A DNA stretch of 50,006 nucleotides from a virus (IMGVR_UViG_3300012041_000007:1-50006), one strand, 5' to 3'. Positions 14,003-41,017 are shown, numbered from the stretch's first letter. A program made the numbers and translations. Notes: generated by a model not told the origin, from the letters alone.

Positions 14003-17000
14003 TGCCTCCTCAAAGTTCATGGGCTGAAAGAAATAGATTAAAGCCTCCTATTGCTCCTACAGGCTCTACTTGGGCTGAAAGGAATAGGCTTGAATCAAAG
14101 ACGTCTAATCCTGCTCCAACTTCTCCTACTGAGAAGCCAGGTTTTTGGTCTAGAGCATTACCGGCAGCTAAAAGTATAGCTGAAGGAGCAGTAGGCCAGC
14201 TTTACATGGGAATGAATCCTGGCTATGGTTCCCAAGTAATGGGACAGGGTTTAATTGAACCCATAATGGAAGCATATAATGACCCTACACCTAGACATCC
14301 ACATGCTAGGTTTGGTAGGGCTGCTCTTCAAATGGCACAGGTTGATCCTAATGCTCTTGAAGAAGATTTATCTGCTGGAAACTATTGGGCAGCCGGTGGT
14401 GACGTAGCTCCTGCTATTGTTGCTGGTCTTGTTGCTAAGAAGGTTGGTGGTAATTTAAGAGGCAGAGCTTTAGCTAACAGTTTAAATGTTCCTACTCCTC
14501 CACCTATTGTTCCTGAGATTCCTACTGTTGGTGGCTGGCGCGGACCTGCTCCTTATGATGTTCCGTTTCCTCCATCTAAGATGGATGTTCCTCTTAATCA
14601 ATCACCGTGGCCTAATGAAAAGGTTCCGCCTAAGCCACAACCATATGATGTGGAGTTACCTCCTTCTCCTTATAACGTTCCAGGTCCACCTAAGCAAATA
14701 CCAGCAGTAACTGGATTAACTACTCCTGATCCTTCTCCTTTGTTTCCTGAAGGTGGACCTTCTTACTTAAGAGGACCAAGAGGACCGGCACCTAAACTAT
14801 TGGGAACAGGAGAGCCTACACCTCCACCCGGTAATAGATTTGCTGATTCATTAGGTCAACCAAATACTGATTTAAATAGTCCTAGCACTGTTGACATCTT
14901 TGGACAGTCTATTCCTGATGCAGCAGCAGTACAGGGAAGAGTAGACTTTCCACCTGTTCAACCGGGATTCAATCCGGCTTTACGTAGACCTGGAACATCC
15001 ATGCCATTGGGTAAACCAATCATGGAGATTCCTCCTGCTCCTGTTCTTCCAGATGTTGAGCCTATTGCTCCTACTGCTGGAGTTGGTGCAGCTACTGGTG
15101 CTAGGGTATCTAAACCCGGTAAAGTAGTTAAAGCTCCGCAAGCTAAAGTACCTAAGTTAAACGTAAAAGAATTGACTGACGAACAGTTACAGCAAGTAAT
15201 AATGAGTGATGCTGGCCCTGTTCCAGCAGCAATGAAAGAGCTTGCAACAAGGACAAAGAGAAGAGTTAAAGCAGCTAAGGCAGAGCAAGTTGCTAAGTTA
15301 GTAGCAGAGACAAAGGCTAGAGCAGGACAGCCTGTTGCTCCTATTGTTCCTCCTGTTGAAGCTGTTGATGTACCAGTTAGAACATTACCAGATGTTGAGC
15401 CACCTAAACCTGTTGTTCCTCCAACTGTAGAACCTGTAACTCCGGTTAAGTCTCCTGTTCCTCTTGCAGATGTTACACTAGCTTCTGAACCACCTAAACC
15501 TGTTGCTCCTGTTGTTGAAACTCCAACTCCACCTAAGCCAAAGGTAGCTGCGCCACCAAAGGCAAACATATCAGCACTTTCTAAAGCTTTAGAGGATGCT
15601 AATACTGCCTATCAAAAGGCACGAAGAGAGTTCAGAGGCTATAAGAGTCCTTTAGAAGATGAAACAAAAGACCCGAAATGGGTTGAAATAAACAATGCAC
15701 TTAACGTTGCACGTAAACAGGTAATAGATGCTACCAAAGCTAAAGCTGCTGCTCTTACTAAGCCTAAGGAAGTAGTGTCGGCTCCTGTTGTAGGGCCAAC
15801 AAAGTCTATTTATGCAGGTATGGAGTGGGAACGTACAGGAGATAATTATACATCTGGTAAATACTCTATTCAAACTGAGAAATCGGGTAGTTGGAGTCTC
15901 CTTGAAGATGGCAAGGTTATTAAGAAAGGTTCATTAAATAATCTTAAAGCAACAGCGGCAGAGCTTTCTAGTAGACCAAAAGGTATTGATCTTTCTGGTA
16001 AGACTCGTGAAGAGTTAATAGAGATTGCCAGAACGGCTGATGATGCCACATCTCTAGCTGTTAGACAAGAACTTAAAACCAGAAGAGAGGCTGCTTCTAA
16101 GGCTGCTGGTTCTAATTTAGCTTCTGGCTTTGGTAGCTTACAGGATGCTCCTCGTATTATTAAACAGGAATTTGATGATTGGAGAGTACTCAAAGAACTA
16201 CCTGAGAATCAGGCTGCCTTTGAGCAGTTCTTAAATGAATCTCCTGAAATCGCTAGGTTAATGCCTAACTGGTCAGGTAAACCTAAAGAGGTACAGATTA
16301 GTACGAAGAGTATACCTAATGTAACTATTCCAAAAGAGGAGCCAGTTGGATTTGGTACTAGAACTGGCAGTAAGAGACTGAATCCACTTGACTATCCAGA
16401 CTTACCTACTGCTGAGAAAATAAAAATAGAAGGACCATCAGTAAGTAATATTAAACGTGGCCCAGTTGAAAGGGTAGTTTGGAAGGATAGGGAAGGTCAG
16501 AGAATTGGTAGACGTTTAGAACCTGAAGGTGAGTTTACTCCTCAGCCAACAGAACCTAGACCAATACCAAAACCACCAGTTCTTAGAGAAAGAACTCGTA
16601 TTGAACTTGACCAAGAGAAGTCACCGCTTAAAGGTTTATCTAATAGAGAGATAGTAGCTAAGGTAGGTAAGGAAGCTGAAGCACAAGCTAAATTGGATGC
16701 CATTAAGGCAGCAGAGGAACGTGGTAAAGCGGCAGCAAGAGCAGAGATCAAGGCAAAGAAGGATGCTAGACTAGCTGAGAGAACTGCTAAGATGGAGGAA
16801 AGAAAAGCTAAAGTAGCTGAGAAGAAAGCTGCTAGAGCTAAGACAGTAGATGAGGTTATTGCACAGAAGAGAGCTACTTCTAAGGTAGATAATGCTACGT
16901 TTAGTGCTGCCGTTAAGAACTTACCTAAGAGGTTTAAGAGCAGCACTCTTTACCGAACAATCTATGAGCCGTCCGGTGTCTCTACTCTTACCAAGTTAAA

Positions 17001-18831
17001 GAGAATGGGTGAGAAGGGTAGTTCATTGGCTAAGACTCTTAGAGATGAGAGAACAGAGTCTAATCGTTTAGGTGGGCAGGAAGCGGTTAAGGTAAGGAAA
17101 GTTAGAAGGATGCTCAGTAATGCCGAGCAAACTGAAGTGGTTAAACTTCTCGATGGTCAGAAGCCATTGAATTCTGCATCTTCTGAGAAGGTTGTAAAAG
17201 CTTATAGAATGTTGAGAGAAAGTACTGAATACTTGGGTAACTTAGCAGTCCAAGCTGGCGTAAAGATGAAGGATTCTAAGGGTAATACTGTTCCTTTCCA
17301 AAAGCTAGCTGGAGAGTACTTCCCTCATCGTTACCCGGAAGAGTTATTCAAAGACCCTGTTGCATTGAAAGAGAAGTTACTACGGCATGGTAAGGATGCA
17401 CAAGGTAGACCGCTTAGTCCTAATGCTGTAGATGCAATGGTTAAGCAAATCACTGAGAAAGGTGAGAGGTTCTCTTCTCCACAGCATTCACGAGACTTTA
17501 ATCTACCAGGTTACTTAGAGAGTCTGGATGCTTTAGAAGCTCATCAATATGAGCTAGCTCAAGCCATTACTAGAACCAAGAGATTTGGTGCTTTGGATAT
17601 GGCTGATGCTGGCAGTACGATTAGCCAACTGGTTAAAAATGCTGAAGACCCAGTTAGAGCTAAGATGATGGTTAATGATTATCTGGAAAGGAATGAGTTT
17701 GACCCGGATAGATCTGGTCAACAGAAGTGGTACAATAGGATTGTTAAGGCAGAGGTAGCTAGTAAGTTATCCCAGTTTGCTATCACTAACATGGGTGACT
17801 TAGCCGGTACTAATGCTGCCCTTGGTATTAGGAATACTCACAAAGCTATTGCTGATACTCTTATGGATAGGCATGGAAGTGCTGATATTGCAGCCGGTAC
17901 TGGTGCTCATGCTATTCTTAGGAAGGAATTACTTAATGATGTTAAGGCAGGTAAATTCTTAAGCAAAGCCTATGGCACAGCCGGTACTGAGAAGGCTATT
18001 AGAACTGTTGCTGCATTGGCTGGCCGGGTAGAGGTTCAAAAGCTGTTTGCAAAGGCTAAGAAAGATCCAAGGTTTAAGAAAACATTAGCAGATTTTGTGG
18101 ATGGGGATGTTAATGATGTTCTCAAGCAGGAGAAACTAACTAAAGAGCAGATTGATTTTGGTGGGGGAAGGGGAGTAGAGATTTCTTCTGGTATCCCTGA
18201 TAAGTTATCTCTTAGCAAAGCCATGTTTGCTGATAATCCCATGATGAGATTGCCATTCCTCTTTAAGAGGTTTGCTTTCATGAATACCAGAAACATGGTA
18301 GACGTAGTTAAGAGGCAGCCTACTGCATTTGCAAAGGTTAAAAAAGCTGGTACTATTCTGGCTGCTTATCAGGTAGCTGGTGAGGTTATTGGTGATACTA
18401 AATCTGCTATTACTGGCTTAGTTAGTGGAGATGTTGAGGAAGAGATTAAGGGACGTGGAGAGTATATTAATTCAGAGAATTGGAAGTTCATTGGTAAAAC
18501 GGTTGGAAGCAAAGCATTAGATAGAATCATAGCTAACTATCTACAGGCTGCTTTGTTTGGTGTGGTTGGTGATGTTACTGAGTCAGTAGTTAGGAAGAAG
18601 TTAGGTAAGGTTTCTGGTACTATTGGTGGGCCGGTTCTTAGTGATGCAGATGAGTTTGCACAAGTTGCTACTGACTTAGCTGGTGGAGATTACAAGTCAT
18701 TAGGTAGAGCGGCAGCTAGAAGGGTTCCATATGTAGGAACCGGGTTAGCTAAACGTTGGGCCAAAGAGAGTAAATCTGGATCAGGAGGTTTAGGTTCTCT
18801 CAGTGGCCCATCGTTGAGAGGATTGAATTAG
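14002..18831 (+). CDS. Large internal virion / ejection protein
   Basis: 1609 aa; last late gene; Pro-rich N-half, helical C-half. Confidence 0.65.
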   Translation: MPPQSSWAERNRLKPPIAPTGSTWAERNRLESKTSNPAPTSPTEKPGFWSRALPAAKSIAEGAVGQLYMGMNPGYGSQVMGQGLIEPIMEAYNDPTPRHPHARFGRAALQMAQVDPNALEEDLSAGNYWAAGGDVAPAIVAGLVAKKVGGNLRGRALANSLNVPTPPPIVPEIPTVGGWRGPAPYDVPFPPSKMDVPLNQSPWPNEKVPPKPQPYDVELPPSPYNVPGPPKQIPAVTGLTTPDPSPLFPEGGPSYLRGPRGPAPKLLGTGEPTPPPGNRFADSLGQPNTDLNSPSTVDIFGQSIPDAAAVQGRVDFPPVQPGFNPALRRPGTSMPLGKPIMEIPPAPVLPDVEPIAPTAGVGAATGARVSKPGKVVKAPQAKVPKLNVKELTDEQLQQVIMSDAGPVPAAMKELATRTKRRVKAAKAEQVAKLVAETKARAGQPVAPIVPPVEAVDVPVRTLPDVEPPKPVVPPTVEPVTPVKSPVPLADVTLASEPPKPVAPVVETPTPPKPKVAAPPKANISALSKALEDANTAYQKARREFRGYKSPLEDETKDPKWVEINNALNVARKQVIDATKAKAAALTKPKEVVSAPVVGPTKSIYAGMEWERTGDNYTSGKYSIQTEKSGSWSLLEDGKVIKKGSLNNLKATAAELSSRPKGIDLSGKTREELIEIARTADDATSLAVRQELKTRREAASKAAGSNLASGFGSLQDAPRIIKQEFDDWRVLKELPENQAAFEQFLNESPEIARLMPNWSGKPKEVQISTKSIPNVTIPKEEPVGFGTRTGSKRLNPLDYPDLPTAEKIKIEGPSVSNIKRGPVERVVWKDREGQRIGRRLEPEGEFTPQPTEPRPIPKPPVLRERTRIELDQEKSPLKGLSNREIVAKVGKEAEAQAKLDAIKAAEERGKAAARAEIKAKKDARLAERTAKMEERKAKVAEKKAARAKTVDEVIAQKRATSKVDNATFSAAVKNLPKRFKSSTLYRTIYEPSGVSTLTKLKRMGEKGSSLAKTLRDERTESNRLGGQEAVKVRKVRRMLSNAEQTEVVKLLDGQKPLNSASSEKVVKAYRMLRESTEYLGNLAVQAGVKMKDSKGNTVPFQKLAGEYFPHRYPEELFKDPVALKEKLLRHGKDAQGRPLSPNAVDAMVKQITEKGERFSSPQHSRDFNLPGYLESLDALEAHQYELAQAITRTKRFGALDMADAGSTISQLVKNAEDPVRAKMMVNDYLERNEFDPDRSGQQKWYNRIVKAEVASKLSQFAITNMGDLAGTNAALGIRNTHKAIADTLMDRHGSADIAAGTGAHAILRKELLNDVKAGKFLSKAYGTAGTEKAIRTVAALAGRVEVQKLFAKAKKDPRFKKTLADFVDGDVNDVLKQEKLTKEQIDFGGGRGVEISSGIPDKLSLSKAMFADNPMMRLPFLFKRFAFMNTRNMVDVVKRQPTAFAKVKKAGTILAAYQVAGEVIGDTKSAITGLVSGDVEEEIKGRGEYINSENWKFIGKTVGSKALDRIIANYLQAALFGVVGDVTESVVRKKLGKVSGTIGGPVLSDADEFAQVATDLAGGDYKSLGRAAARRVPYVGTGLAKRWAKESKSGSGGLGSLSGPSLRGLN

Positions 18832-24080: not shown

Positions 24081-24503
24081 TCAATCCTCCAGACCCCAAC
24101 AGTATCCATTGGGACTAATAACAAATACTTCCTTCTCATTCTGAATGGCATAGCGAATAGTCTTCCATGCCGGAGAGTCTTCATACTCATTGAAGATTTG
24201 TGGAATACCTACAATGATTCCACATTCATCAATCATCCTCTTGTTACGTTCCCTCAATGGAAGGGAAGGATTAATCTTCTTAGCTCCATTGAACTTCTCT
24301 ACTTCTCCATTGTTACCTGCATGTGGATAAACTTCAACTTCAAATCCTTGACCCATTAACGTTAAGAACAAATCGTAGTCTGCATCGTCCCCACCTACAA
24401 TGAATGAGTGGGTATCCTTATGGAAGGTTGGAAGCAATTGCCTGAAAGCTTCTAACTGTTTGCGGGTAATGTCAAACCGGCTGGTAACTACTGAAATTTT
24501 CAT
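24081..24503 (-). CDS. SLOG-superfamily (YspA/DprA-like Rossmann) nucleotide-binding protein
   Basis: GGDDAD, RERNKRMIDEC and SPAWKTIRYA...KEVFVI patterns. Confidence 0.65.
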   Translation of the reverse strand: MKISVVTSRFDITRKQLEAFRQLLPTFHKDTHSFIVGGDDADYDLFLTLMGQGFEVEVYPHAGNNGEVEKFNGAKKINPSLPLRERNKRMIDECGIIVGIPQIFNEYEDSPAWKTIRYAIQNEKEVFVISPNGYCWGLED

Positions 24504-24802
24504 GATTCTAAAAACCTTCTCATTTTGTTTTTCTTCATTAGGTACAGGTAAGCTTCGTTTCTATTTCTACATCGTGATACTTCTGGATAGGTCTTAAGTC
24601 CTTTTGCTATGATTGAACTAACACCTATCCAGCTTTTACTCTTGTTGGTAATCTTAGCCATCGATCGTACAGTTGTGGACTTACCGGCACTATTGAGCTT
24701 GTCCATCAACTCAGTAAGAGTATTGATTTCAAGAACCCAATCTTTAGGTTCTCTTAGAGTTCTGATTAACTCATTAAGTCTTTCGTAAGTTGATGGGTCC
24801 AT
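24500..24802 (-). CDS. HTH-like DNA-binding protein (start revised to ATG 24802)
   Basis: TVRSMAKITNKSKSWI helix-turn-helix; the longer track ORF runs through the tRNA. Confidence 0.6.
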   Translation of the reverse strand: MDPSTYERLNELIRTLREPKDWVLEINTLTELMDKLNSAGKSTTVRSMAKITNKSKSWIGVSSIIAKGLKTYPEVSRCRNRNEAYLYLMKKNKMRRFLES

Positions 24803-24804
24803 AA

Positions 24805-24951
24805 CTATGCAGGCCAGGGAATCATTGAAGCAGTCAGAAACGCTAGACCTGCTGCAACTAACCGTTGTTGGTAAGGTGCTCCTAATGGTAGTGCTGCAAT
24901 TGTAAAGCATACAAACGCAAACACTAGTAGTAACAGTTGAAGTATCTTCAT
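24805..24951 (-). CDS. 48-aa two-TM membrane protein, holin-like (MKILQLLLLVFAFVCFTIAALPLGAPYQQRLVAAGLAFLTASMIPWPA); not in ORF track
   Basis: AAGGAG SD 8 nt before ATG; two hydrophobic stretches; fills the gap between tRNA and next gene. Confidence 0.7.
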   Translation of the reverse strand: MKILQLLLLVFAFVCFTIAALPLGAPYQQRLVAAGLAFLTASMIPWPA

Positions 24952-24970
24952 TGCCTTTTCTCCTTGGTAA

Positions 24971-25052
24971 TGGGATCGATGGGAGTCGAACCCATATGGT
25001 TTGCACCGTTGGATTTTAAGTCCAATGCGTATACCTGTTCCGCCACGATCCC
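24971..25052 (-). tRNA. tRNA-Leu(UAA)
   Basis: Acceptor GGGATCG/CGATCCC plus A; anticodon arm TTGGA-CTTAAAA-TCCAA; long variable arm; T arm ATGGG-TTCGACT-CCCAT; CCA not encoded directly. Confidence 0.93.
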
Positions 25053-25058
25053 AATTAA

Positions 25059-25244
25059 CTAGTCAGCTCTCTCTGCGTAGATTCTCTCTAATATTTCTAA
25101 TTGTTTTTCACTAAGAGAACCACGCTTAGTAAACTGTTCTTTAACAGACTCTACGAAATCTTCTTCCCACTTTGATAGGTTTACACCAGTTTCTTCAATA
25201 GATTTAAACCACTCTTCTACTAGTTTCTTTTGATTCTCTTCCAT
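25059..25244 (-). CDS. Hypothetical protein
   Basis: LSKWEEDFVES...LSEKQLEILERI, a common small phage protein pattern; TAATG coupling. Confidence 0.75.
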   Translation of the reverse strand: MEENQKKLVEEWFKSIEETGVNLSKWEEDFVESVKEQFTKRGSLSEKQLEILERIYAERAD

Positions 25245-25459
25245 TAGACAAGTCCATTAAGAACGATGGAAGCATTAGCAGTCATTACTGCTTCTCTAAT
25301 CTTACGGATTGCTGTTGTCCTATCGGCTGAAGCTGGACATTCATTAAGGATACAAAGAACTAGAATTTTTGCAGTATCCCTAATAGCTTTGAGGCTTTCA
25401 ATTTGTTCTTCACTTGGTGCATGATACTTAAACACTTCATCAACTTGTGCTTTTTCCAT
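25244..25459 (-). CDS. Acb2/Tad1-like helical hairpin protein (candidate immune-signal sponge); start revised to 25459
   Basis: FKYHAPSEEQ...CPASADRTTAIRKIREAVMTANASI pattern; GAGGA SD 6 nt before ATG. Confidence 0.6.
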   Translation of the reverse strand: MEKAQVDEVFKYHAPSEEQIESLKAIRDTAKILVLCILNECPASADRTTAIRKIREAVMTANASIVLNGLV

Positions 25460-25724
25460 TTTCATTCCTCTTTTCATGATGTAGTCCCACTGTTTTGAAG
25501 TGAAACTACTTACTTCATCGTAGTAAATTATCTTCATATCCTTTAAAGAGGGAACAATCTGTTTGGGTGTCCCGGCCCAGTTAATAGCCACGGTCTTTAA
25601 CTATTAACTACCTATTGTTCCCTCATTAAAAGATACTCGATGGAGTTTAGGCGCCTCAGCCTAATCTTTTATTCAAGCGGTTGGCGATTCCGAGTGTATT
25701 GCCAACCATCCATTTCTTACTCAC

Positions 25725-35666: not shown

Positions 35667-36041
35667 TCAGCGCTCCCAATTGCCTTTCATTCTGGCAATC
35701 TGTTCGTCTGGCACATTGTGTTCGCTTTTCCTAAGCGGGCCAGTCATAGTAACTTCCGTTACTGTGTAGTAGTTAGCCTCTGCCAAGTCCAAGTAGTCTT
35801 TCATTTCCCAACGCTTAACGAAGGTGTTTGCTACTGCAATGGTTTGAACTCCGGCAATCATTGCATACTTAACCTTATCCTTACACCAAGCGTGAGCCTC
35901 TGCCAGTTTCTCTCTGTCATACTGATAGGCTCCGTCTTTCTTAAAGAACTCATCAGCCTCACAAACAATGTGAGCAATCTTATTGGCAAAGGTTGTCTTA
36001 CCTGAACCGGGCAATCCACGAATCATGTAGATTTGCCTCAT
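35667..36041 (-). CDS. P-loop kinase (AAA_33 / polynucleotide-kinase-like)
   Basis: IRGLPGSGKTT, CEADEFF, AHAWC, VANTF, HNVP. Confidence 0.85.
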   Translation of the reverse strand: MRQIYMIRGLPGSGKTTFANKIAHIVCEADEFFKKDGAYQYDREKLAEAHAWCKDKVKYAMIAGVQTIAVANTFVKRWEMKDYLDLAEANYYTVTEVTMTGPLRKSEHNVPDEQIARMKGNWER

Positions 36042-36872: not shown

Positions 36873-37079
36873 CTACTCCTTTCTGAGATTGACCTGCTTA
36901 AGTCTTTGCAGGAAGTCCCAATCTCTTTCTCTTTCGAGCCTTTGCTTATCAGAGAAGGCTTTCTGTTTCGCTATCTCTTCTCTTTCAAGAGCTTCTCTGT
37001 CAAGCCTAACCTTATACTCTTTCCAAGAATTTCTTCTCTTTAAGAGTTTTGGTTTAGCTTTAAGTGTTTGCTTTTCCAT
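36873..37079 (-). CDS. Small basic/charged protein
   Basis: 68 aa; AGGAG SD located within stem G arm. Confidence 0.6.
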   Translation of the reverse strand: MEKQTLKAKPKLLKRRNSWKEYKVRLDREALEREEIAKQKAFSDKQRLERERDWDFLQRLKQVNLRKE

Positions 37080-37136
37080 AAGTTAGTGTGTTTCTCCTGA
37101 TTTTCGCCATACTCTTTCGAGTATCTCTGGCGCCAG

Positions 37137-37178
37137 TCGGGCCTACCTCGGGCCTACCTCGGGCCTACCCTCGGCCTA
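37137..37178. repeat. Tandem 11-bp repeat TCGGGCCTACC x3 plus partial copy
   Basis: Directly visible, three perfect copies at 37137-37169. Confidence 0.9.
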
Positions 37179-37228
37179 TGGTCTGCCGGCAACCCTATGT
37201 GTAGACTACAGTTAACCCTACCCACAGG

Positions 37229-37276
37229 AGTATAGCATACTCTTAGGGTAGAGTCTACTGTCCCCTTTTGGTGACA
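37229..37276 (-). promoter_or_regulatory. Sigma70-type promoter with abutting 18-bp palindromic operator
   Basis: TAGACT-17-TATACT with extended TG; TGTCC-N8-TGACA at 37259-37276. Confidence 0.7.
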
Positions 37277-37423
37277 GGGTTTTGGGGTGTTTGTAATGTT
37301 GTAGTTGTTTGTGTTCTTTTCTATATATATTTTTTATATATATAAAGAAGAGAACCCCACACCCACCACCATGTAAAACTTACACCCTACCCATTGGGTA
37401 AGAATCTGGCATAGGGATATGGT

Positions 37424-37469
37424 CAGGCATTTTTTGCAGATTCCCTAGGGAAAACGCAGAAAATGCCTG
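37424..37469. repeat. 46-bp near-perfect palindrome centred on TTCCCTAGGGAA
   Basis: CAGGCATTTTTTGC...GCAGAAAATGCCTG. Confidence 0.85.
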
Positions 37470-37560
37470 TTTTGATAGCCCTAAACTAGCCCGAAGGAGA
37501 GCATAACATAGTCAAAGAATGACCAGAAATACTCTTTCGCTTTTGGGCGAAACACACTAA

Positions 37561-37977
37561 ACTTGTAGATTTGATTCAATGCTGGAGAATGAGAAGCTAA
37601 ATCCTAGTGTCTATCGTTCATTTCCAGATTGACTTCTCGAAACAAGACTTCAAGCAATTTCTTCCTGAAATCTGTATCCTTTGTGTTGAAGACGTTGGTT
37701 CTCAATCCAATGAGTTTGGGAACGATTGCCAGAACGTCATTGTAATTGATTCCAGAGACCTTCTGATAGCAACGAATACGAAAGACAACCTTGTCAATGT
37801 TCTCGGTAGTAATCTCACCGATGTCAATGACCATAGTTGTCCAAATCATTGCTTCAATGGCAGTCCAATTCTCTTTCTGCCATTCTTTGTCTAGCTTACA
37901 CTCCGTAATGTCCCAAGTTAGTGCCATACAGACCCTTTCTTTACTAATCTGTCCAGCACTGAATGAAACCTACAAGT
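37561..37977 (-). repeat. Stem F: 26-bp inverted repeat (37561-37586 / 37952-37977) enclosing gene 37604..37927
   Basis: ACTTGTAGATTTGATTCAATGCTGGA vs reverse complement ACTTGTAGGTTTCATTCAGTGCTGGA (23/26). Confidence 0.92.
37604..37927 (-). CDS. Early hypothetical protein
   Basis: 107 aa; AGAAAGGG SD. Confidence 0.8.
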   Translation of the reverse strand: MALTWDITECKLDKEWQKENWTAIEAMIWTTMVIDIGEITTENIDKVVFRIRCYQKVSGINYNDVLAIVPKLIGLRTNVFNTKDTDFRKKLLEVLFREVNLEMNDRH

Positions 37978-37983
37978 CTAATT

Positions 37984-38441
37984 GTTTGTGTGCTTTACTG
38001 GTAGCCTGAAAAGAACCCTAATTAGAACTTGGGTTCGTTGTCGTAATCGAAGTGTTCCGAAATGGACATCGAAGGATAGCTTTTGTCCATCGCAGTTGAG
38101 ATGTCATTACGAAGGTGAATGAGACGATTCTCAGCGTCAGACAATTGCTCTCTGAGCTTGTTGTTCTCCTTCTGCAACGATTCAATCTTGGCTTTCTGAC
38201 TCTCCGATTCATAGTTCGGAGGCTGAATAACCATGATTGCTTCCACCAAGTCTTTCGCTTCCTTCAAACCAATGTCAACCTTGGCAACAGTGTAAGTCTT
38301 TGTGCCATAGTGAACGGTTTCAACTGTCTGTGTTGTGACAACCACAGGAAGGTCACGAATAACCTTGATTGCATCGATTTTGTGAGTAGGCATCTTCATA
38401 GTAGCACTAACCTTTCTAGGCTACCAATGAAGCACACAAAC
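37984..38441 (-). repeat. Stem E: 30-bp inverted repeat (37984-38013 / 38412-38441) enclosing gene 38022..38399
   Basis: GTTTGTGTGCTTTACTGGTAGCCTGAAAAG vs GTTTGTGTGCTTCATTGGTAGCCTAGAAAG (26/30). Confidence 0.92.
38022..38399 (-). CDS. Ribosomal protein bL12 C-terminal-domain-like protein with coiled-coil tail
   Basis: KIDAIKVIRDL and IGLKEAKDLVE match bL12 KI.VIK.VR...LGLKEAKDLVE, split by a ~25-aa insertion. Confidence 0.7.
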   Translation of the reverse strand: MKMPTHKIDAIKVIRDLPVVVTTQTVETVHYGTKTYTVAKVDIGLKEAKDLVEAIMVIQPPNYESESQKAKIESLQKENNKLREQLSDAENRLIHLRNDISTAMDKSYPSMSISEHFDYDNEPKF

Positions 38442-38475
38442 TGTTTGTGGATTTGATAAGTGGGCCAAAGTTGAA

Positions 38476-38661
38476 TTACTTCTTGTCTTTCCAGAAGTCT
38501 TTCTGGTTGTCCAGTGACTTCTGAAGTTCGCAGGCTTTGCAAATGCGGTCTGTTTTGGGATTGCAGACCACATACATTCCATTGGGATTGTCTACATGCT
38601 TAACGCAGTAGTAATTCCCATCCCAATCTACCCAACCAACGATAACATCGTAGTCAGGCAT
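38476..38661 (-). CDS. Early small Cys/His protein
   Basis: CVKH...CKAC; TAATG coupling. Confidence 0.7.
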   Translation of the reverse strand: MPDYDVIVGWVDWDGNYYCVKHVDNPNGMYVVCNPKTDRICKACELQKSLDNQKDFWKDKK

Positions 38662-38861
38662 TAGGATTGTCCTTCCTGAAACACAGAGAATGACTCGATG
38701 TCATTGACTTTGACATACTCAGGAAGTTTCTTGTCACCCTCGAAATAGATAATCAATTCGGGATGATAGATGTTGTCGGAAGGGTGTGGATAAGTGCTTA
38801 TTCCACGAACCTTAGCGATTTGGCTTTGAGAGCCATTCTTGAAGTTAAGATGGAGAACCAT
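38661..38861 (-). CDS. Early hypothetical protein (start revised to ATG 38861)
   Basis: AGAAAGG SD; longer track ORF runs into stem D arm. Confidence 0.7.
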   Translation of the reverse strand: MVLHLNFKNGSQSQIAKVRGISTYPHPSDNIYHPELIIYFEGDKKLPEYVKVNDIESFSVFQEGQS

Positions 38862-38914
38862 ACAGAACAGACCTTTCTGGCCCACCAACCAAATCCACAA
38901 ACATAACAATCTAT

Positions 38915-39010
38915 TGGTAAAGGCCGGTTTACAGTTCGTTTAACCCTCACTCTGTAAATCGCCTCATGAGCAGAGTATTTGTTCTTGTTTAAGGAACGGC
39001 ACCTTTACCA
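38915..39010 (-). ncRNA. ORF-free ~96-nt rod-like hairpin between stems C and D
   Basis: TGGTAAAGG/CCTTTACCA closing stem; inner ACTCTG/CAGAGT. Confidence 0.5.
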
Positions 39011-39377
39011 GTAAGACATTGCCTTGTGAAGTTCTTAAGTAGTTCTGAAGGCTGATTGATTAGTTAGAGAACCGGAAGCGGTTCGTAAACTTCGTTTTCG
39101 TAGCCTTTGCCATTGTTTGCGACACGCTCTTGCAGACGAGCCATGTCACGGTTCAAGGCATTGTGAAAGCGAATGGCCTTCGTGTGGATAGCTGCCATTT
39201 GAAGCGCCTCACTGAATGTGAAACCATCCAGTTTGATGCTCATCAAAGCAGCCCAATTGTCTGTGCGGATTGCATCCTGAAAGTCACAGAGCTTAACCAT
39301 CTTGATGTCCATAGTAACTCCTGTTTGGTGTTTAGCCATTCAGAACTACCAAAGAACCTCACAAGGTTTTGTCTTAC
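39011..39377 (-). repeat. Stem C: 39-bp inverted repeat (39011-39049 / 39339-39377) enclosing gene 39064..39312
   Basis: GTAAGACATTGCCTTGTGAAGTTCTTAAGTAGTTCTGAA vs GTAAGACAAAACCTTGTGAGGTTCTTTGGTAGTTCTGAA (33/39). Confidence 0.95.
39064..39312 (-). CDS. Early hypothetical protein (start revised to ATG 39312)
   Basis: AGGAG SD 5 nt before ATG. Confidence 0.75.
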   Translation of the reverse strand: MDIKMVKLCDFQDAIRTDNWAALMSIKLDGFTFSEALQMAAIHTKAIRFHNALNRDMARLQERVANNGKGYENEVYEPLPVL

Positions 39378-39386
39378 CTAGACTGC

Positions 39387-39715
39387 GGAGATTAGATGCT
39401 CAATAGGTGGGCCGAGTGAAAGGGTTACGAAGCGATGCCGTTCTTAATGTTGATTACCCAAACGTTACGCAAAGACTGGTTGCGAACCTGAACGGTGCCG
39501 TCTGCAAGGTCACGAACCGAGCAGTAACCAGAACCATTGTAGGTATTCATCATGAAGTCTTTGCCAGCGTTCAGGTCAGTGACTACAGACAAGCGATTCT
39601 TGTAGTCTCGACCGTAAGCGGGGGAAAGTGTTCCACCAGAGAGTTTCTGAGTAGTCTGAGTAGTGTTTGCCATGATTAATTCCAATCTGGCCCACCTACT
39701 GAACACCTAATCTCC
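39387..39715 (-). repeat. Stem B: 27-bp inverted repeat (39387-39413 / 39689-39715) enclosing gene 39425..39673
   Basis: GGAGATTAGATGCTCAATAGGTGGGCC vs GGAGATTAGGTGTTCAGTAGGTGGGCC (24/27; all three differences are G:U on the mRNA). Confidence 0.95.
39425..39673 (-). CDS. Early hypothetical protein (start revised to ATG 39673)
   Basis: PAYGRDYK...GKDF motif; lies within stem B loop. Confidence 0.75.
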   Translation of the reverse strand: MANTTQTTQKLSGGTLSPAYGRDYKNRLSVVTDLNAGKDFMMNTYNGSGYCSVRDLADGTVQVRNQSLRNVWVINIKNGIAS

Positions 39716-40407
39716 AAGGATTGTGGACTCGTTTGAGTCTACTGAGCAGGGTTAACTAGCGGTTGCCGATTGCGTCTGCGATTGTCTGGTTGACAACCCC
39801 AGTGTCGGGAAGCGAAACAACTGCCGGGATGACTTCGGCAGGAGTGTTGACTACGACAGGCTGAATGACTTCTCCGGCAGACTTCAGCGAAGCCTTCCAA
39901 AGACCGTCGGCCTTCAGCTTGTTGATGTGAACGGACAAGCGATTGCAGAAGGAGTCCAGCGTTTCGGCAGGGAAACCGATTGCCTTCTGTCCTTCGTTGC
40001 TCGTGTGGAACGCCGTGGCAAGAGTGATTGCACGGTCTTCCGTTTCCGCGTAATCGTTATCGAACAGGAACGAAGCCACTTCCTTGACTTCGATGTTCTC
40101 CTTGATTACGGCAGAACGCTCGACTTCCAGCCCGCCTCTGACGAAAGACTCTTTCATCATTGACTGGTTGAAATTGAAGACCTGTTCCATACTGTCAACC
40201 ACTTCCTTGAAGGAAACGGAAGCCAGATGGTCAAAGGTGAAACGAACAGCAACACCGTTGACGAGAACCGGAACGGCAATCGTCTTGATTGTTACTGTTC
40301 CCTTTGCCGCCTTGCCTTTGCGGGGAACCTGCACTGTGTGAATGGTAAGAGCCATTGAACTACCTCAGAGAGTTAGCCCAGTAGACTCGAAAGAATCCAC
40401 AATCCTT
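39716..40407 (-). repeat. Stem A: 32-bp inverted repeat (39716-39747 / 40376-40407) enclosing gene 39756..40355
   Basis: AAGGATTGTGGACTCGTTTGAGTCTACTGAGC vs AAGGATTGTGGATTCTTTCGAGTCTACTGGGC (28/32). Confidence 0.95.
39756..40355 (-). CDS. First early protein, hypothetical
   Basis: 199 aa; GAGGT SD; higher GC than rest of genome. Confidence 0.85.
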   Translation of the reverse strand: MALTIHTVQVPRKGKAAKGTVTIKTIAVPVLVNGVAVRFTFDHLASVSFKEVVDSMEQVFNFNQSMMKESFVRGGLEVERSAVIKENIEVKEVASFLFDNDYAETEDRAITLATAFHTSNEGQKAIGFPAETLDSFCNRLSVHINKLKADGLWKASLKSAGEVIQPVVVNTPAEVIPAVVSLPDTGVVNQTIADAIGNR

Positions 40408-40410
40408 TAA

Positions 40411-40584
40411 CTCACGCGATTCTCGATGTCTAGCCGTTTGCTATTCTTAGGCTGGCAGAGTTACCGGACACGATACGCTTGGGAAGCGTTCGTTCTACCG
40501 GCAACCGTAGCCATTCAATAGGTGTTGGGAACACCAACCACCAAGTGATAGCAGGGACGCTAGGCTGTCGAGCCGTCACGTGAG
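40411..40584 (-). ncRNA. ~174-nt highly structured leader RNA
   Basis: Nested pairings CTCACG/CGTGAG, CTCGA/TCGAG, CTAGC/GCTAG, TGCTAT/ATAGCA, TGGC/GCCA, GTTGCCGG/CCGGTAAC, ACGCTT/AAGCGT, GGTGTT/AACACC; no ORF. Confidence 0.65.
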
Positions 40585-40593
40585 CCGTATTCA

Positions 40594-40606
40594 GTTGTCA
40601 AAGAAC
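40594..40606 (-). promoter_or_regulatory. rRNA-type boxA antitermination element
   Basis: GTTCTTTGACAAC(TGAATA) resembles rrn boxA (GYTCTTTRAMAA); ~100 nt downstream of a promoter and preceded by hairpins. Confidence 0.6.
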
Positions 40607-40709
40607 TAAGGCTTCGAGGTTCAGCACCAACCATGTAACGGGTGCCTGTCACTCTAACCAGCACTAATCAGTAGTGCCCACTGTCTTAACGAACGAGTCT
40701 TACAATTGA

Positions 40710-40737
40710 TTAGACGCTAAAGAGAAGGAAAGGTTCC
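40710..40737 (-). promoter_or_regulatory. ECF sigma (sigmaE-type) promoter for early transcript
   Basis: GGAACC-N16-GTCTAA. Confidence 0.6.
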
Positions 40738-40926
40738 CGGCCTGCGCGTGTGAGAATCCAACCCCAACAATACCCACCCCCCACACCCCGATTTACTTTT
40801 GGTTCCATTTGCTCCGCAAATCGGAAAGGTAGCTACTGAGTGTCTTTGTCACAAAAATAAGTACCTAAACAAAAATAAGGATTGTTAGTTGAATCACTAA
40901 AAATAAAAAAATCAAAAAGTTTAGGA

Positions 40927-40944
40927 CGTCCCAGTTTGGGGACA
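40927..40944. promoter_or_regulatory. Third copy of 18-bp palindromic operator
   Basis: CGTCCCAGTTTGGGGACA. Confidence 0.6.
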
Positions 40945-40988
40945 AACCTAGGACAGCAATTTCCTGCAAAATCCCTAGGAAAAACGGC

Positions 40989-41017
40989 TTGTACTCCTGT
41001 ACATAATGTGGTAAGGT
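40989..41017 (+). promoter_or_regulatory. Candidate late promoter
   Basis: TTGTAC-17-TAAGGT with extended TG, upstream of terS; weak match. Confidence 0.4.

What the first reader, a model, noticed from the sequence alone, without database searches (positions are those of the whole stretch)
37083..40737. Every early gene is looped out by its own long-range RNA stem: a chain of abutting 26-39 bp inverted repeats
Seen: six consecutive cassettes (A 39716-40407, B 39387-39715, C 39011-39377, D 38442-38903, E 37984-38441, F 37561-37977) each have a 5'-UTR arm complementary to a 3'-UTR arm 270-630 nt away. A seventh (G) encloses a non-coding region. Each pair has a unique sequence. Neighbouring stems abut with 0-9 nt gaps (A/B, D/E and F/G have none). 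The SD and start codon sit at or just inside each loop. By hand count, 13 transition mismatches give G:U on the mRNA strand versus 4 giving A:C, which points to selection on RNA pairing of the coding strand. Established: RNase III cuts long-range stems flanking 16S and 23S rRNA, and T7 early mRNA is cut at local hairpins. Inference: the early polycistron folds into a rosette that is processed into end-paired, possibly stabilised or circularised, single-gene mRNAs, and genes may be exchanged as stem-bounded modules. I do not know of a described phage with this layout.
Basis: partly seen in the sequence, partly recalled or inferred. Interest (0 to 1): 0.95.

Follow-up and report, generated by a model that had tools for sequence, protein, structure and literature searches.

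The report
Phage early genes packaged like rRNA
In this uncultured phage each of the first early genes is enclosed by its own long-range RNA helix downstream of a ribosomal-RNA-type boxA signal, so the early operon seems to copy the way bacteria transcribe and process rRNA.

Summary
Six imperfect inverted repeats of 26-40 nt, 275-628 nt apart, each bracket one cistron (one holds two ORFs) on the - strand. They are the six best long-range pairings in the 50-kb genome and are absent from shuffles. Several results point to selection on RNA. In relatives the helix around the conserved gene A keeps pairing through compensatory changes (26 of 31 pairs; 0 of 500 shuffles). Wobble pairs favour the mRNA strand (83 G:U against 25 A.C). 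All six helices appear in the minimum-energy fold of the 3.75-kb transcript.

New here: a conserved motif just upstream (40606-40588) is identical to the boxA region of bacterial rRNA operons. In those operons, as in the phages, a leader-trailer helix starts at or next to it. Two conserved non-coding RNA modules sit in the same chain. Phages with unrelated terminases also show boxA followed by a gene-bracketing helix.

Best reading: an rRNA-operon mimic, with Nus/boxA antitermination and per-gene leader-trailer helices that are probably cut by host RNase III, giving insulated, swappable cassettes. Cleavage, Nus binding and the host are untested. Circularisation has no support.

The parts
40588..40606 (-). 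rRNA-operon-type boxA motif (core 40594-40606) with its 3' extension. It is the only zero-mismatch boxA-like site in the genome.
   Evidence: Found once per phage in the window and 9 other distinct relatives, always upstream of the first stem. The same 17-mer lies 58-190 nt upstream of 16S or 23S in 9 of 18 bacterial loci tested. It is the only 0-mismatch hit in the window.
40409..40586 (-). Non-coding structured leader module. Its closing helix, 40586-40576 with 40419-40409, starts 2 nt after boxA and ends 1 nt before stem A.
   Evidence: The helix is in the MFE of the 3.75-kb transcript. RNAalifold with L040 gives 53 pairs, 13 with changes on both sides (only two sequences).
39716..40407 (-). 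Cassette A: 5' arm 40407-40376, ORF 40355-39756 (199 aa, the conserved 'gene A' family), 3' arm 39747-39716.
   Evidence: Covariation across 10 phages. Cognate duplex -47.0 kcal/mol.
39387..39715 (-). Cassette B: 5' arm 39715-39689, ORF 39673-39425 (82 aa), 3' arm 39413-39387.
   Evidence: -50.4 kcal/mol.
39011..39377 (-). Cassette C: 5' arm 39377-39339, ORF 39312-39064 (82 aa from the ATG that has an SD), 3' arm 39049-39011.
   Evidence: -51.1 kcal/mol.
38915..39010 (-). Conserved non-coding module of about 95 nt between C and D, closed by a 10-bp helix (39010-39001 with 38924-38915).
   Evidence: The interior is highly conserved in 4 phages. 6 of the 10 closing pairs (7 of all 26 predicted pairs) show changes on both sides. 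No Rfam match.
38442..38903 (-). Cassette D: 5' arm 38903-38876, two overlapping ORFs 38861-38661 (66 aa) and 38661-38476 (61 aa), 3' arm 38469-38442.
   Evidence: -42.8 kcal/mol.
37984..38441 (-). Cassette E: 5' arm 38441-38411, ORF 38399-38022 (125 aa), 3' arm 38014-37984.
   Evidence: -42.2 kcal/mol.
37556..37982 (-). Cassette F: 5' arm 37982-37952, ORF 37927-37604 (107 aa), 3' arm 37586-37556.
   Evidence: -39.7 kcal/mol. The same arms hold unrelated cargo in L040 and L007.
37080..37561 (-). Module G: a composite interrupted helix (37561-37518 with 37128-37080) around a non-coding region. The region contains a terminator-like hairpin, an AT palindrome, a promoter-like site and a tandem repeat. 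The 3' strand lies between the SD and the ATG of the next gene (37079).
   Evidence: -39 kcal/mol against a median of -18.5.. Comparable closures in L040 and L007.

Best explanation
The first 3.5 kb or so of the leftward (- strand) early transcription unit is built like a bacterial rRNA operon, with small protein-coding genes and two small structured RNAs in the place of rRNAs.

Proposed steps:
1. Host RNA polymerase transcribes an rRNA-type boxA (40606-40588).
2. boxA recruits NusB/NusE and the other Nus factors, giving a termination-resistant complex.
3. Each downstream unit is then closed by its own 26-40 bp leader-trailer helix. The helix forms between sequences just upstream of the ribosome-binding site and just downstream of the stop codon.
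4. The helices make each cistron an independently folded domain.
5. Most likely they are cut by the host's double-strand-specific RNase III. That would release single-gene mRNAs with paired ends whose expression does not depend on their neighbours.
6. Because the arms are conserved 'slots', they also serve as anchors for recombination that swaps cargo between related phages.

Shown here: the helices, their conservation and covariation, the strand asymmetry, the identity of the motif with rrn boxA and its rrn-like position next to a long-range helix, and the cassette shuffling.

Inferred: Nus binding, RNase III cleavage, the insulating or stabilising effect, and the early timing.
For: Helices in the window:
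- They are the top six long-range pairings of the genome and are essentially absent from shuffles.
- All six are present in the MFE fold of the 3751-nt transcript, and A and B also in the centroid of a 1041-nt fold.
- Cognate arm duplexes are -40 to -51 kcal/mol. Non-cognate ones are -7 to -23 and neighbouring-junction ones -8 to -14.

Conservation:
- 15 of 42 loci fetched by terminase similarity carry such stems, in chains of up to 6.
- Gene A is bracketed in 10 distinct phages whose arms differ widely. 89.9% of cells are paired, 26 of 31 pairs have changes on both sides, and 0 of 500 shuffles reach this. Slid controls are 26-48% paired.

Strand asymmetry:
- 14 G:U against 4 A.C in the window.
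- 83 against 25 in 43 stems of 12 phages under a strand-neutral stem definition.
- A G:U pair is kept at one helix position in 7 of 10 phages.

Placement: arms lie outside the ORFs, with the SD just inside the loop.

boxA:
- The motif is conserved in the window and 9 other distinct relatives.
- The exact 17-mer lies upstream of 16S or 23S, on the rRNA strand, in 9 of 18 bacterial loci tested.
- In 6 of 7 of those rRNA operons my finder places the leader-trailer helix at +1 to +19 of the motif.
- The phages show the same arrangement. In 7 of 10 the first long-range helix starts 0-10 nt after the motif or within it.

Literature (PMC10250234, passages read): boxA is necessary and sufficient for the rrn antitermination complex. 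Leader-trailer helices are 25-40 bp. The 23S helix is cut by RNase III. boxA tethering is proposed to help the long-range helix form.

Generality: among 80 viral loci holding the 17-mer, 12 of 81 motif instances have a long-range stem starting within -10 to +110 nt, against 0.42 expected. These stems bracket the first ORF. They occur in phages whose terminase is only 34-37% identical or not detectably related.
Against: - No RNA data exist, so no cleavage site, transcript end or start point is known.
- The host is unknown, so its RNase III and Nus factors cannot be examined.
- Two of the four closest relatives with the richest chains (L007, L010) have no recognisable boxA upstream of their first stem, nor do L021 and L014. 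boxA is therefore not required for the stems.
- In the window boxA is followed first by a non-coding module, and only one boxA serves the whole chain.
Only its position gives it meaning. 9 of the 18 tested bacterial loci had no rRNA within the stored 8 kb.
- The G:U counts include homologous stems that share ancestry, so the p-values overstate independence.
- G:T is also the most tolerated mismatch in single-stranded DNA, so the asymmetry shows single-strand folding of the sense strand rather than RNA as such.
- In rRNA the leader-trailer helix has a role independent of RNase III (PMC10250234, passage), so a helix does not prove cleavage.
- No RNase III or RNA ligase gene was recognised in the phage.
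Confidence: 0.6

Rival explanations
1. The helices act without being cut. In this reading they are structural insulators that close each cistron into its own folding domain. They would hide both ends from exonucleases and 5'-end-dependent RNases, and bring the stop codon next to the ribosome-binding site so that terminating ribosomes can re-initiate on the same cistron.
For: The arms end 5-20 nt after the stop in most cassettes and 9-59 nt before the start in 35 of 36, so the two ends of each cistron meet at the base of the helix. In rRNA the leader-trailer helix has an essential role independent of RNase III (PMC10250234, passage read). All structural evidence fits this reading as well as it fits cleavage.
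Against: Helices of 26-40 bp are much longer than needed merely to join ends, and they are in the size range of the RNase III-cleaved rRNA helices (PMC10250234, passage). Imperfections recur in the helix interior, several pairs in from the loop-proximal end, in most stems. That resembles the internal irregularities of known RNase III sites; this comparison is recalled, not tested.
Confidence: 0.22
2. The helices are RNase III targets used to switch the early genes off. Cleavage removes the protective ends and speeds decay of the early mRNAs, giving a sharp early pulse. The recalled parallel is sib retroregulation of lambda int.
For: The same structural evidence as above. The bracketed genes are confined to the promoter-proximal 3.3 kb, and the later genes on the same strand lack stems.
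Against: After cleavage both ends would still be held in a residual duplex, which in the known T7 case (recalled) stabilises mRNAs. Nothing in the sequence distinguishes this from stabilisation.
Confidence: 0.08
3. The repeats are primarily DNA elements. They would be ends of mobile gene cassettes (terminal inverted repeats, or halves of palindromic recombination sites as in integron-like systems), and the RNA pairing would be incidental.
For: Cassette order differs among near-identical phages. Identical arms hold unrelated cargo (F arms are 92-100% identical with three unrelated ORFs). One cargo that is 98% identical sits in arms only 79-82% identical. Several boundaries abut with no spacer. 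All arms share a loose consensus.
Against: - The two arms of a cassette stay complementary through many compensatory changes. Independent decay of transposon ends would not give this.
- Non-Watson-Crick positions are strongly biased to G:U on the sense strand.
- No cassette is found inverted in any relative.
- Junction sequences do not form local hairpins of attC type (-8 to -14 kcal/mol).
- No integrase or transposase was recognised among the ORFs scanned.
- The same architecture occurs around rRNA genes next to the same boxA motif.
Confidence: 0.05
4. After cleavage the paired ends are ligated, giving circular single-gene mRNAs. The recalled parallel is the archaeal pre-rRNA intermediates.
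For: Only the geometry: the 5' and 3' ends of each unit are held together in a helix.
Against: No RNA ligase domain was recognised in the phage. There is no RNA evidence of any kind.
Confidence: 0.03

Closest known systems
Leader-trailer (processing) helices of bacterial rRNA operons with the boxA/Nus antitermination complex
   Same: - Long-range helices of 25-40 bp between the sequences that flank a functional RNA unit, supported by covariation.
- A boxA motif identical over 17 nt.
- The helix 5' strand starts at or within a few nt of boxA.
- Several such units sit in tandem in one transcript (16S, then 23S).
Sources; PMC10250234 passages.
   Different: - The enclosed units are small protein-coding genes (66-231 aa) or small non-coding RNAs, not rRNA.
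- Six to nine units are chained, and most abut.
- Only one boxA serves the chain, and some relatives have none.
- The units are swapped between genomes.
RNase III processing sites of T7-group early mRNA (recalled, not from a call)
   Same: A polycistronic early phage transcript made by host RNA polymerase, with double-stranded elements between cistrons. The elements share a family resemblance within one genome.
   Different: T7 sites are local hairpins between genes. Here the 3' arm of one cassette and the 5' arm of the next pair only weakly (-8 to -14 kcal/mol), and each arm pairs across its own gene (-40 to -51).
boxA in lambdoid nut sites and in other Nus-dependent operons (suhB; CRISPR arrays, the latter recalled)
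   Same: boxA in the 5' leader of a long transcript that must resist termination (PMC10250234 and PMC5725501 passages).
   Different: No N-like protein or boxB was identified. The motif matches the rrn form found in several phyla, which differs at one position from the gamma-proteobacterial consensus quoted in PMC5725501. It is also coupled to long-range helices.
PeSL regulatory cassettes of T4-type phages (PMC2839356, abstract read)
   Same: Repeated intergenic elements in a region of small ORFan early genes that mediate modular shuffling between close relatives.
   Different: PeSLs are a promoter plus a local terminator stem-loop, repeated in direct orientation. Here there is no excess of promoter-like or terminator-like sites (7 found against 6.9 expected, and 7 against 6.3), and the elements pair across the gene.

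Membership tests
rRNA-operon-type leader-trailer helix | Long (about 25-40 bp) helix between the sequences flanking the unit | tested here: met
   Arms of 26-40 nt, 85-89% complementary, 275-628 nt apart. All are in the MFE.
rRNA-operon-type leader-trailer helix | Pairing kept by covariation among relatives | tested here: met
   26 of 31 pairs have changes on both sides in 10 phages, and 0 of 500 shuffles reach this.
rRNA-operon-type leader-trailer helix | 5' strand lies just downstream of boxA | tested here: met
   Window: a helix strand starts 2 nt after the motif. In 7 of 10 phages with boxA it starts 0-10 nt after the motif or within it. In rrn operons it starts at +1 to +19 in 6 of 7. Not met in L007, L010, L021 and L014, which lack boxA.
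rRNA-operon-type leader-trailer helix | Encloses an rRNA | tested here: not met
   The loops hold ORFs with SD and start codons, or small non-coding RNAs. No rRNA was found by Rfam.
rRNA-operon-type leader-trailer helix | Cleaved by RNase III | not testable with these tools
   No RNA run was listed and the host is unknown.
boxA (NusB/NusE site) | Sequence matching the rrn boxA of bacteria | tested here: met
   The exact 17-mer lies upstream of 16S or 23S in 9 of 18 bacterial loci tested. It differs at one position from the gamma-proteobacterial consensus quoted in PMC5725501.
boxA (NusB/NusE site) | Binds NusB/NusE and confers antitermination | not testable with these tools
   Needs binding or read-through assays.
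T7-type intercistronic RNase III hairpin | Local hairpin between adjacent cistrons | tested here: not met
   Junction duplexes are -8 to -14 kcal/mol, against -40 to -51 for the long-range pairs.
PeSL cassette | Sigma-70-type promoter plus local terminator stem-loop at each junction | tested here: not met
   Promoter-like sites: 7 against 6.9 expected. Terminator-like sites: 7 against 6.3. None lies at the junctions.
Integron attC cassette or TIR-bounded mobile element | Local attC hairpin with an integrase, or transposon ends that decay independently, with a transposase | tested here: not met
   There is no local hairpin. The arms co-vary. No integrase or transposase family was hit among the ORFs scanned; about 16 small ORFs were not scanned.

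The most novel reading that the evidence does not exclude
Phages of several unrelated lineages may have taken over the whole rRNA-operon expression programme for their first genes. The programme would comprise boxA-nucleated Nus antitermination, the tethering that helps long-range helices form, and RNase III leader-trailer processing. The result would be a natural 'plug-and-play' array in which any ORFan or small RNA placed between a matched pair of arms is transcribed without termination, cut out and expressed independently of its neighbours. That would explain how hypervariable early regions can swap cargo freely.
Probability: 0.4. Interest if true: 0.9.

Novelty: new variant of a known kind. 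Interest (0 to 1): 0.85.

Why it matters
If the helices work as proposed, this is a natural way of insulating genes in an operon, built from host rRNA-processing logic and applied to mRNAs.

It would explain how phage early regions tolerate rapid cassette exchange. It would add a class of Nus/boxA targets in phages that need no N-like protein. It would also offer ready-made orthogonal pairs of insulating arms for synthetic operons.

The architecture is simple to search for (boxA followed by a gene-spanning helix). It already appears in phages with unrelated terminases, so it may be a widespread and unrecognised feature of early phage transcription.

The two conserved non-coding modules in the chain are candidate new phage small RNAs.

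Tried and rejected
Searches that found nothing:
- DNA similarity to cultured phages: none for 37000-41000. No tblastn hit for gene A.
- The nearest cultured phages by terminase are HMO-2011-type, at 30-33% identity. Roseobacter phage CRP-1 (whole genome) and the first 30 kb of Puniceispirillum phage HMO-2011 show no such chain.
- PHROGs and Pfam give no family above the curated cut-off for any of the cargo proteins.
- The AlphaFold model of gene A (mean pLDDT 74, pTM 0.44) has no significant PDB match (best E 0.98). Its function stays unknown.
- Rfam: only the tRNA at gathering score. At E up to 1 there are only chance microRNA hits on an AT palindrome.

Leads checked and set aside:
- The leader 40400-40800 as a whole does not fold better than shuffles (z -0.7), although its boxA-proximal 178 nt co-vary with L040.
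- Aligning the region upstream of the leader with region G showed no convincing paralogy.
- The MFE also pairs the G-rich tract near 40787-40739 with 37370-37284 across the whole array. I did not test this and treat it as possibly a folding artefact.
- Host inference from boxA failed, because the motif occurs in many phyla.

Tools that gave no result:
- No RNA holder was listed for the region.

Literature: six searches listed no paper describing gene-spanning helices around phage mRNAs. That is no proof that none exists. Supplements were not opened; supplementary tables of PMC10250234 and PMC5725501 with boxA and boxC sequences may bear on the motif comparison.

Rows dropped from the counts:
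- For one search I used 37 of 51 detected stems. I dropped 6 duplicates (L026 = L027, L029 = L037) and 8 stems that rest on tandem repeats, are nested, or do not bracket an ORF (L027_0, L027_2, L027_3, L036_1, L032_0, L021_3, L014_0, L014_1).
- For one search I tested 18 of the 80 listed bacterial loci, choosing full-length (8-kb) loci, mostly from long contigs.

Full report
WHAT THE WINDOW IS. The 50,006-bp window is a complete viral record with direct terminal repeats. It has no nucleotide match among cultured phages. Its terminase is 30-33% identical to those of HMO-2011-type podoviruses. Genes run leftwards on the - strand from about 40800 to 19222. This arm holds small ORFans, then a helicase, a PD-(D/E)XK nuclease, DNA polymerase and primase. 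Genes run rightwards from 41036 through the record's end to 18831, holding terminase and structural genes. The finding lies at the promoter-proximal end of the leftward arm. Calling it 'early' is an inference from that position.

THE OBSERVATION. Six inverted repeats lie at the stated coordinates. They rank 1-4, 6 and 7 among 59 long-range inverted pairs in the genome. They are the top six on the - strand with a wobble-tolerant score, at 22.75-25.75 against 19.75 for the next best. A stricter finder gives 4 in the window; in 40 dinucleotide shuffles it gave one hit in each of 2 shuffles.

Each pair brackets one cistron, and D brackets two overlapping ORFs. The 5' arm ends 9-59 nt before the start codon in 35 of the 36 listed cassettes, with an SD-like AGAAAGG, AGATTGG or GGAG in between. 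The 3' arm begins 5-20 nt after the stop in most cassettes. The genes from 37079 downwards are tightly packed and have no such stems.

The gaps are 0-9 nt except between C and D. That 107-nt gap is occupied by a conserved non-coding module with its own covarying 10-bp closing helix. G is a composite interrupted helix.

IS THE PAIRING SELECTED, AND IN WHICH MOLECULE? Three lines of evidence bear on this.

First, thermodynamics. The minimum-energy fold of the whole 3751-nt transcript contains all six helices (27-34 bp). The centroid of a 1041-nt fold contains A and B. Each 5' arm pairs with its own 3' arm at -40 to -51 kcal/mol. With any other 3' arm the value is -7 to -23, and with the abutting arm of the neighbouring cassette it is -8 to -14. 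So these are not local hairpins at gene junctions.

Second, conservation. A terminase-based scan of IMG/VR gave 42 loci, and 15 of them carry long-range stems upstream of the terminase on the opposite strand, in chains of up to six. Many of the 27 without stems have little sequence upstream of the terminase. The five with only 31% terminase identity have none. The one cargo shared widely, gene A (181-231 aa, 19-43% identical to the window's copy), is bracketed in 10 distinct phages by arms that differ widely in sequence. RNAalifold on the whole cassettes predicts the helix. On that alignment 89.9% of cells pair, 26 of 31 pairs show changes on both sides, and 0 of 500 shuffles reach any of the five measures. 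Slid controls pair at 26-48%.

Third, strand asymmetry. On tool-defined arms there are 14 G:U against 4 A.C on the mRNA strand. With a strand-neutral stem definition there are 83 against 25 in 43 stems of 12 phages. With the wobble-tolerant definition there are 96 against 19 in 37 stems. One G:U is kept at the same helix position in 7 of 10 phages. Homologous stems are not independent, so the p-values are generous. G:T is also tolerated in single-stranded DNA, so strictly this shows folding of the sense strand. RNA is the natural candidate, because the arms track UTR boundaries.

THE ARMS ARE A FAMILY AND BEHAVE AS SLOTS. The 5' arms share a loose GU-rich consensus. Most stems carry one or two non-canonical positions in the helix interior, several pairs in from the loop-proximal end.

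Cassette order differs among phages with 98-99% identical terminases: A-B-C-D-E-F in the window, B-A-x-C-D-E in L010, x-x-A-x-E-F* in L007. The F arms are 92-100% identical in three phages but hold three unrelated ORFs. The E arms are 96-100% identical around cargo only 42% identical. Conversely, a 98%-identical cargo sits in arms that are 79-82% identical. No cassette was found inverted.

It suggests recombination within or beside the arms, comparable in outcome to PeSL-mediated shuffling in T4-type phages (PMC2839356, abstract). The elements themselves differ: there is no excess of promoter-like or terminator-like sites.

THE NEW ELEMENT: AN rRNA-TYPE boxA. A 19-nt motif at 40606-40588 is almost the only sequence of the early region shared with more distant relatives. 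It occurs once in the window and in 9 other distinct phages, always upstream of the first stem. It is the only zero-mismatch match in the genome.

It resembles boxA; the gamma-proteobacterial consensus quoted in PMC5725501 differs at one position. I tested the resemblance directly. The exact 17-mer occurs in many bacterial genomes (the raw count is near chance by my arithmetic). In 9 of 18 loci examined it lies on the rRNA strand, in one of two places:
- 130-190 nt upstream of 16S (two Mesorhizobium, one Acidobacteriota, one deltaproteobacterial MAG);
- 58-150 nt upstream of 23S in the spacer (three Acidobacteriota, two Mycoplasmopsis).
These are the two positions where rrn operons carry boxA (PMC10250234, passage).

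Running my stem finder on seven of those operons placed the leader-trailer helix at +1 to +19 of the motif in six. The phages do the same. In seven of ten the first long-range helix begins 0-10 nt after the motif or within it. In the window a helix strand begins 2 nt after it and closes a 178-nt non-coding module that ends 1 nt before stem A.

According to the passages read in PMC10250234:
- boxA is necessary and sufficient to assemble the rrn antitermination complex;
- leader-trailer helices are 25-40 bp with a GU-rich boxC in the 5' strand;
- the 23S helix is cut by RNase III;
- tethering of boxA to NusB is proposed to keep the leader strand near the RNA exit channel until the trailer emerges.

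Against a strict dependence, L007, L010, L021 and L014 have no recognisable boxA.

GENERALITY. Among the 80 listed, 12 of 81 motif instances have a long-range stem of score 19 or more starting between -10 and +110 nt. The loci's own stem density predicts 0.42. In L195, L213, L217 and L220 the stem tightly brackets the first ORF, in L194 the first large ORF is bracketed by a second stem that follows a short first one, and L177 has three abutting stems. In L174, L176, L227 and L233 boxA itself lies in the 5' arm, as in the Acidobacteriota and deltaproteobacterial rRNA operons. Of five such records, one complete 69.5-kb genome has a terminase only 34-37% identical to the window's, and four show no match. 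The architecture is therefore not confined to one phage clade.

MECHANISM. The best-supported reading is an rRNA-operon mimic: Nus/boxA antitermination followed by per-unit leader-trailer helices. The helices, their selection, the motif identity and its position are shown. Nus binding, RNase III cleavage and the physiological effect (insulation, stabilisation, or timed decay) are inferred. The phage encodes no recognisable RNase III or RNA ligase among the ORFs scanned, so a host enzyme is assumed. No RNA run was listed and the host is unknown.

Alternatives are given with the rivals: helices acting without cleavage, cleavage used for shut-off, DNA-level cassettes, and circular mRNAs. The DNA reading is disfavoured by the covariation, the strand asymmetry, the absence of inverted cassettes and the rRNA parallel. 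Circularisation has no support.

COMPARISON AND NOVELTY. The components are known: boxA, leader-trailer helices and RNase III. The combination is what I could not find described. That combination is a chain of gene-spanning helices around protein-coding phage genes and small RNAs, headed by an rrn-type boxA, with arms acting as exchange slots. Six full-text searches listed nothing of the kind. I rate it a new variant of a known kind and of high interest. It is conserved, statistically solid, recurs in unrelated phages and is directly testable.

Noticed in passing
window 38915-39010 (-): A conserved non-coding element of about 95 nt between cassettes C and D. Its interior is nearly invariant in four phages, and its 10-bp closing helix shows compensatory changes. 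There is no Rfam match. It may be a phage small RNA or a protein-binding site.
   Followed up: partly
window 40409-40586 (-): A structured non-coding module directly after boxA. 13 of 53 predicted pairs change on both sides between the window and L040 (two sequences only).
   Followed up: partly
window 25244-25591 (-): A 115-aa protein with an Acb2/Tad1 hairpin domain (Pfam PF24729, E 6e-11, above the cut-off). It is a likely sponge for cyclic-nucleotide defence signals.
   Followed up: no
window 35667-36041 (-): A 124-aa P-loop kinase of the AAA_33 type (E 1.5e-10). It could be a nucleotide or polynucleotide kinase.
   Followed up: no
window 24970-25053 (-): tRNA-Leu (anticodon TAA) inside the replication arm, overlapping the predicted start of ORF 24500-25006.
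   Followed up: no
window 37140-37175 and 37315-37351 (-): Inside region G: three tandem copies of an 11-nt unit, and an AT-only palindrome next to a promoter-like site (37257-37229) and a terminator-like hairpin (37403-37385). This may be the boundary to the next transcription unit.
   Followed up: no
window 40739-40787 with 37284-37370 (-): The minimum-energy fold pairs the G-rich tract at the start of the leader with sequences in region G, 3.4-3.7 kb away, enclosing the whole array. It may be a folding artefact.
   Followed up: no
L010 loops (about 6000, 4660 and 4040); L040 about 5390: Small GC-rich hairpins of one family, with a four-base loop, are inserted inside several cassette loops, before or after the ORF.
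   Followed up: no
L027 5963-6933: A nested arrangement: an outer 32-bp helix encloses the gene A cassette plus a small second cassette, and its 5' strand overlaps the end of the boxA motif.
   Followed up: no
L061, L075, L111 (Streptococcus and Veillonella contigs): The same boxA 17-mer lies about 150 nt upstream of a pemK RNA motif, in what looks like a shared mobile element and not an rRNA operon.
   Followed up: no
window 14002-18831 (+): A 1609-aa ORF in the structural arm has no Pfam family. The neighbouring 912-aa ORF ends in a peptidase M15 domain.
   Followed up: no
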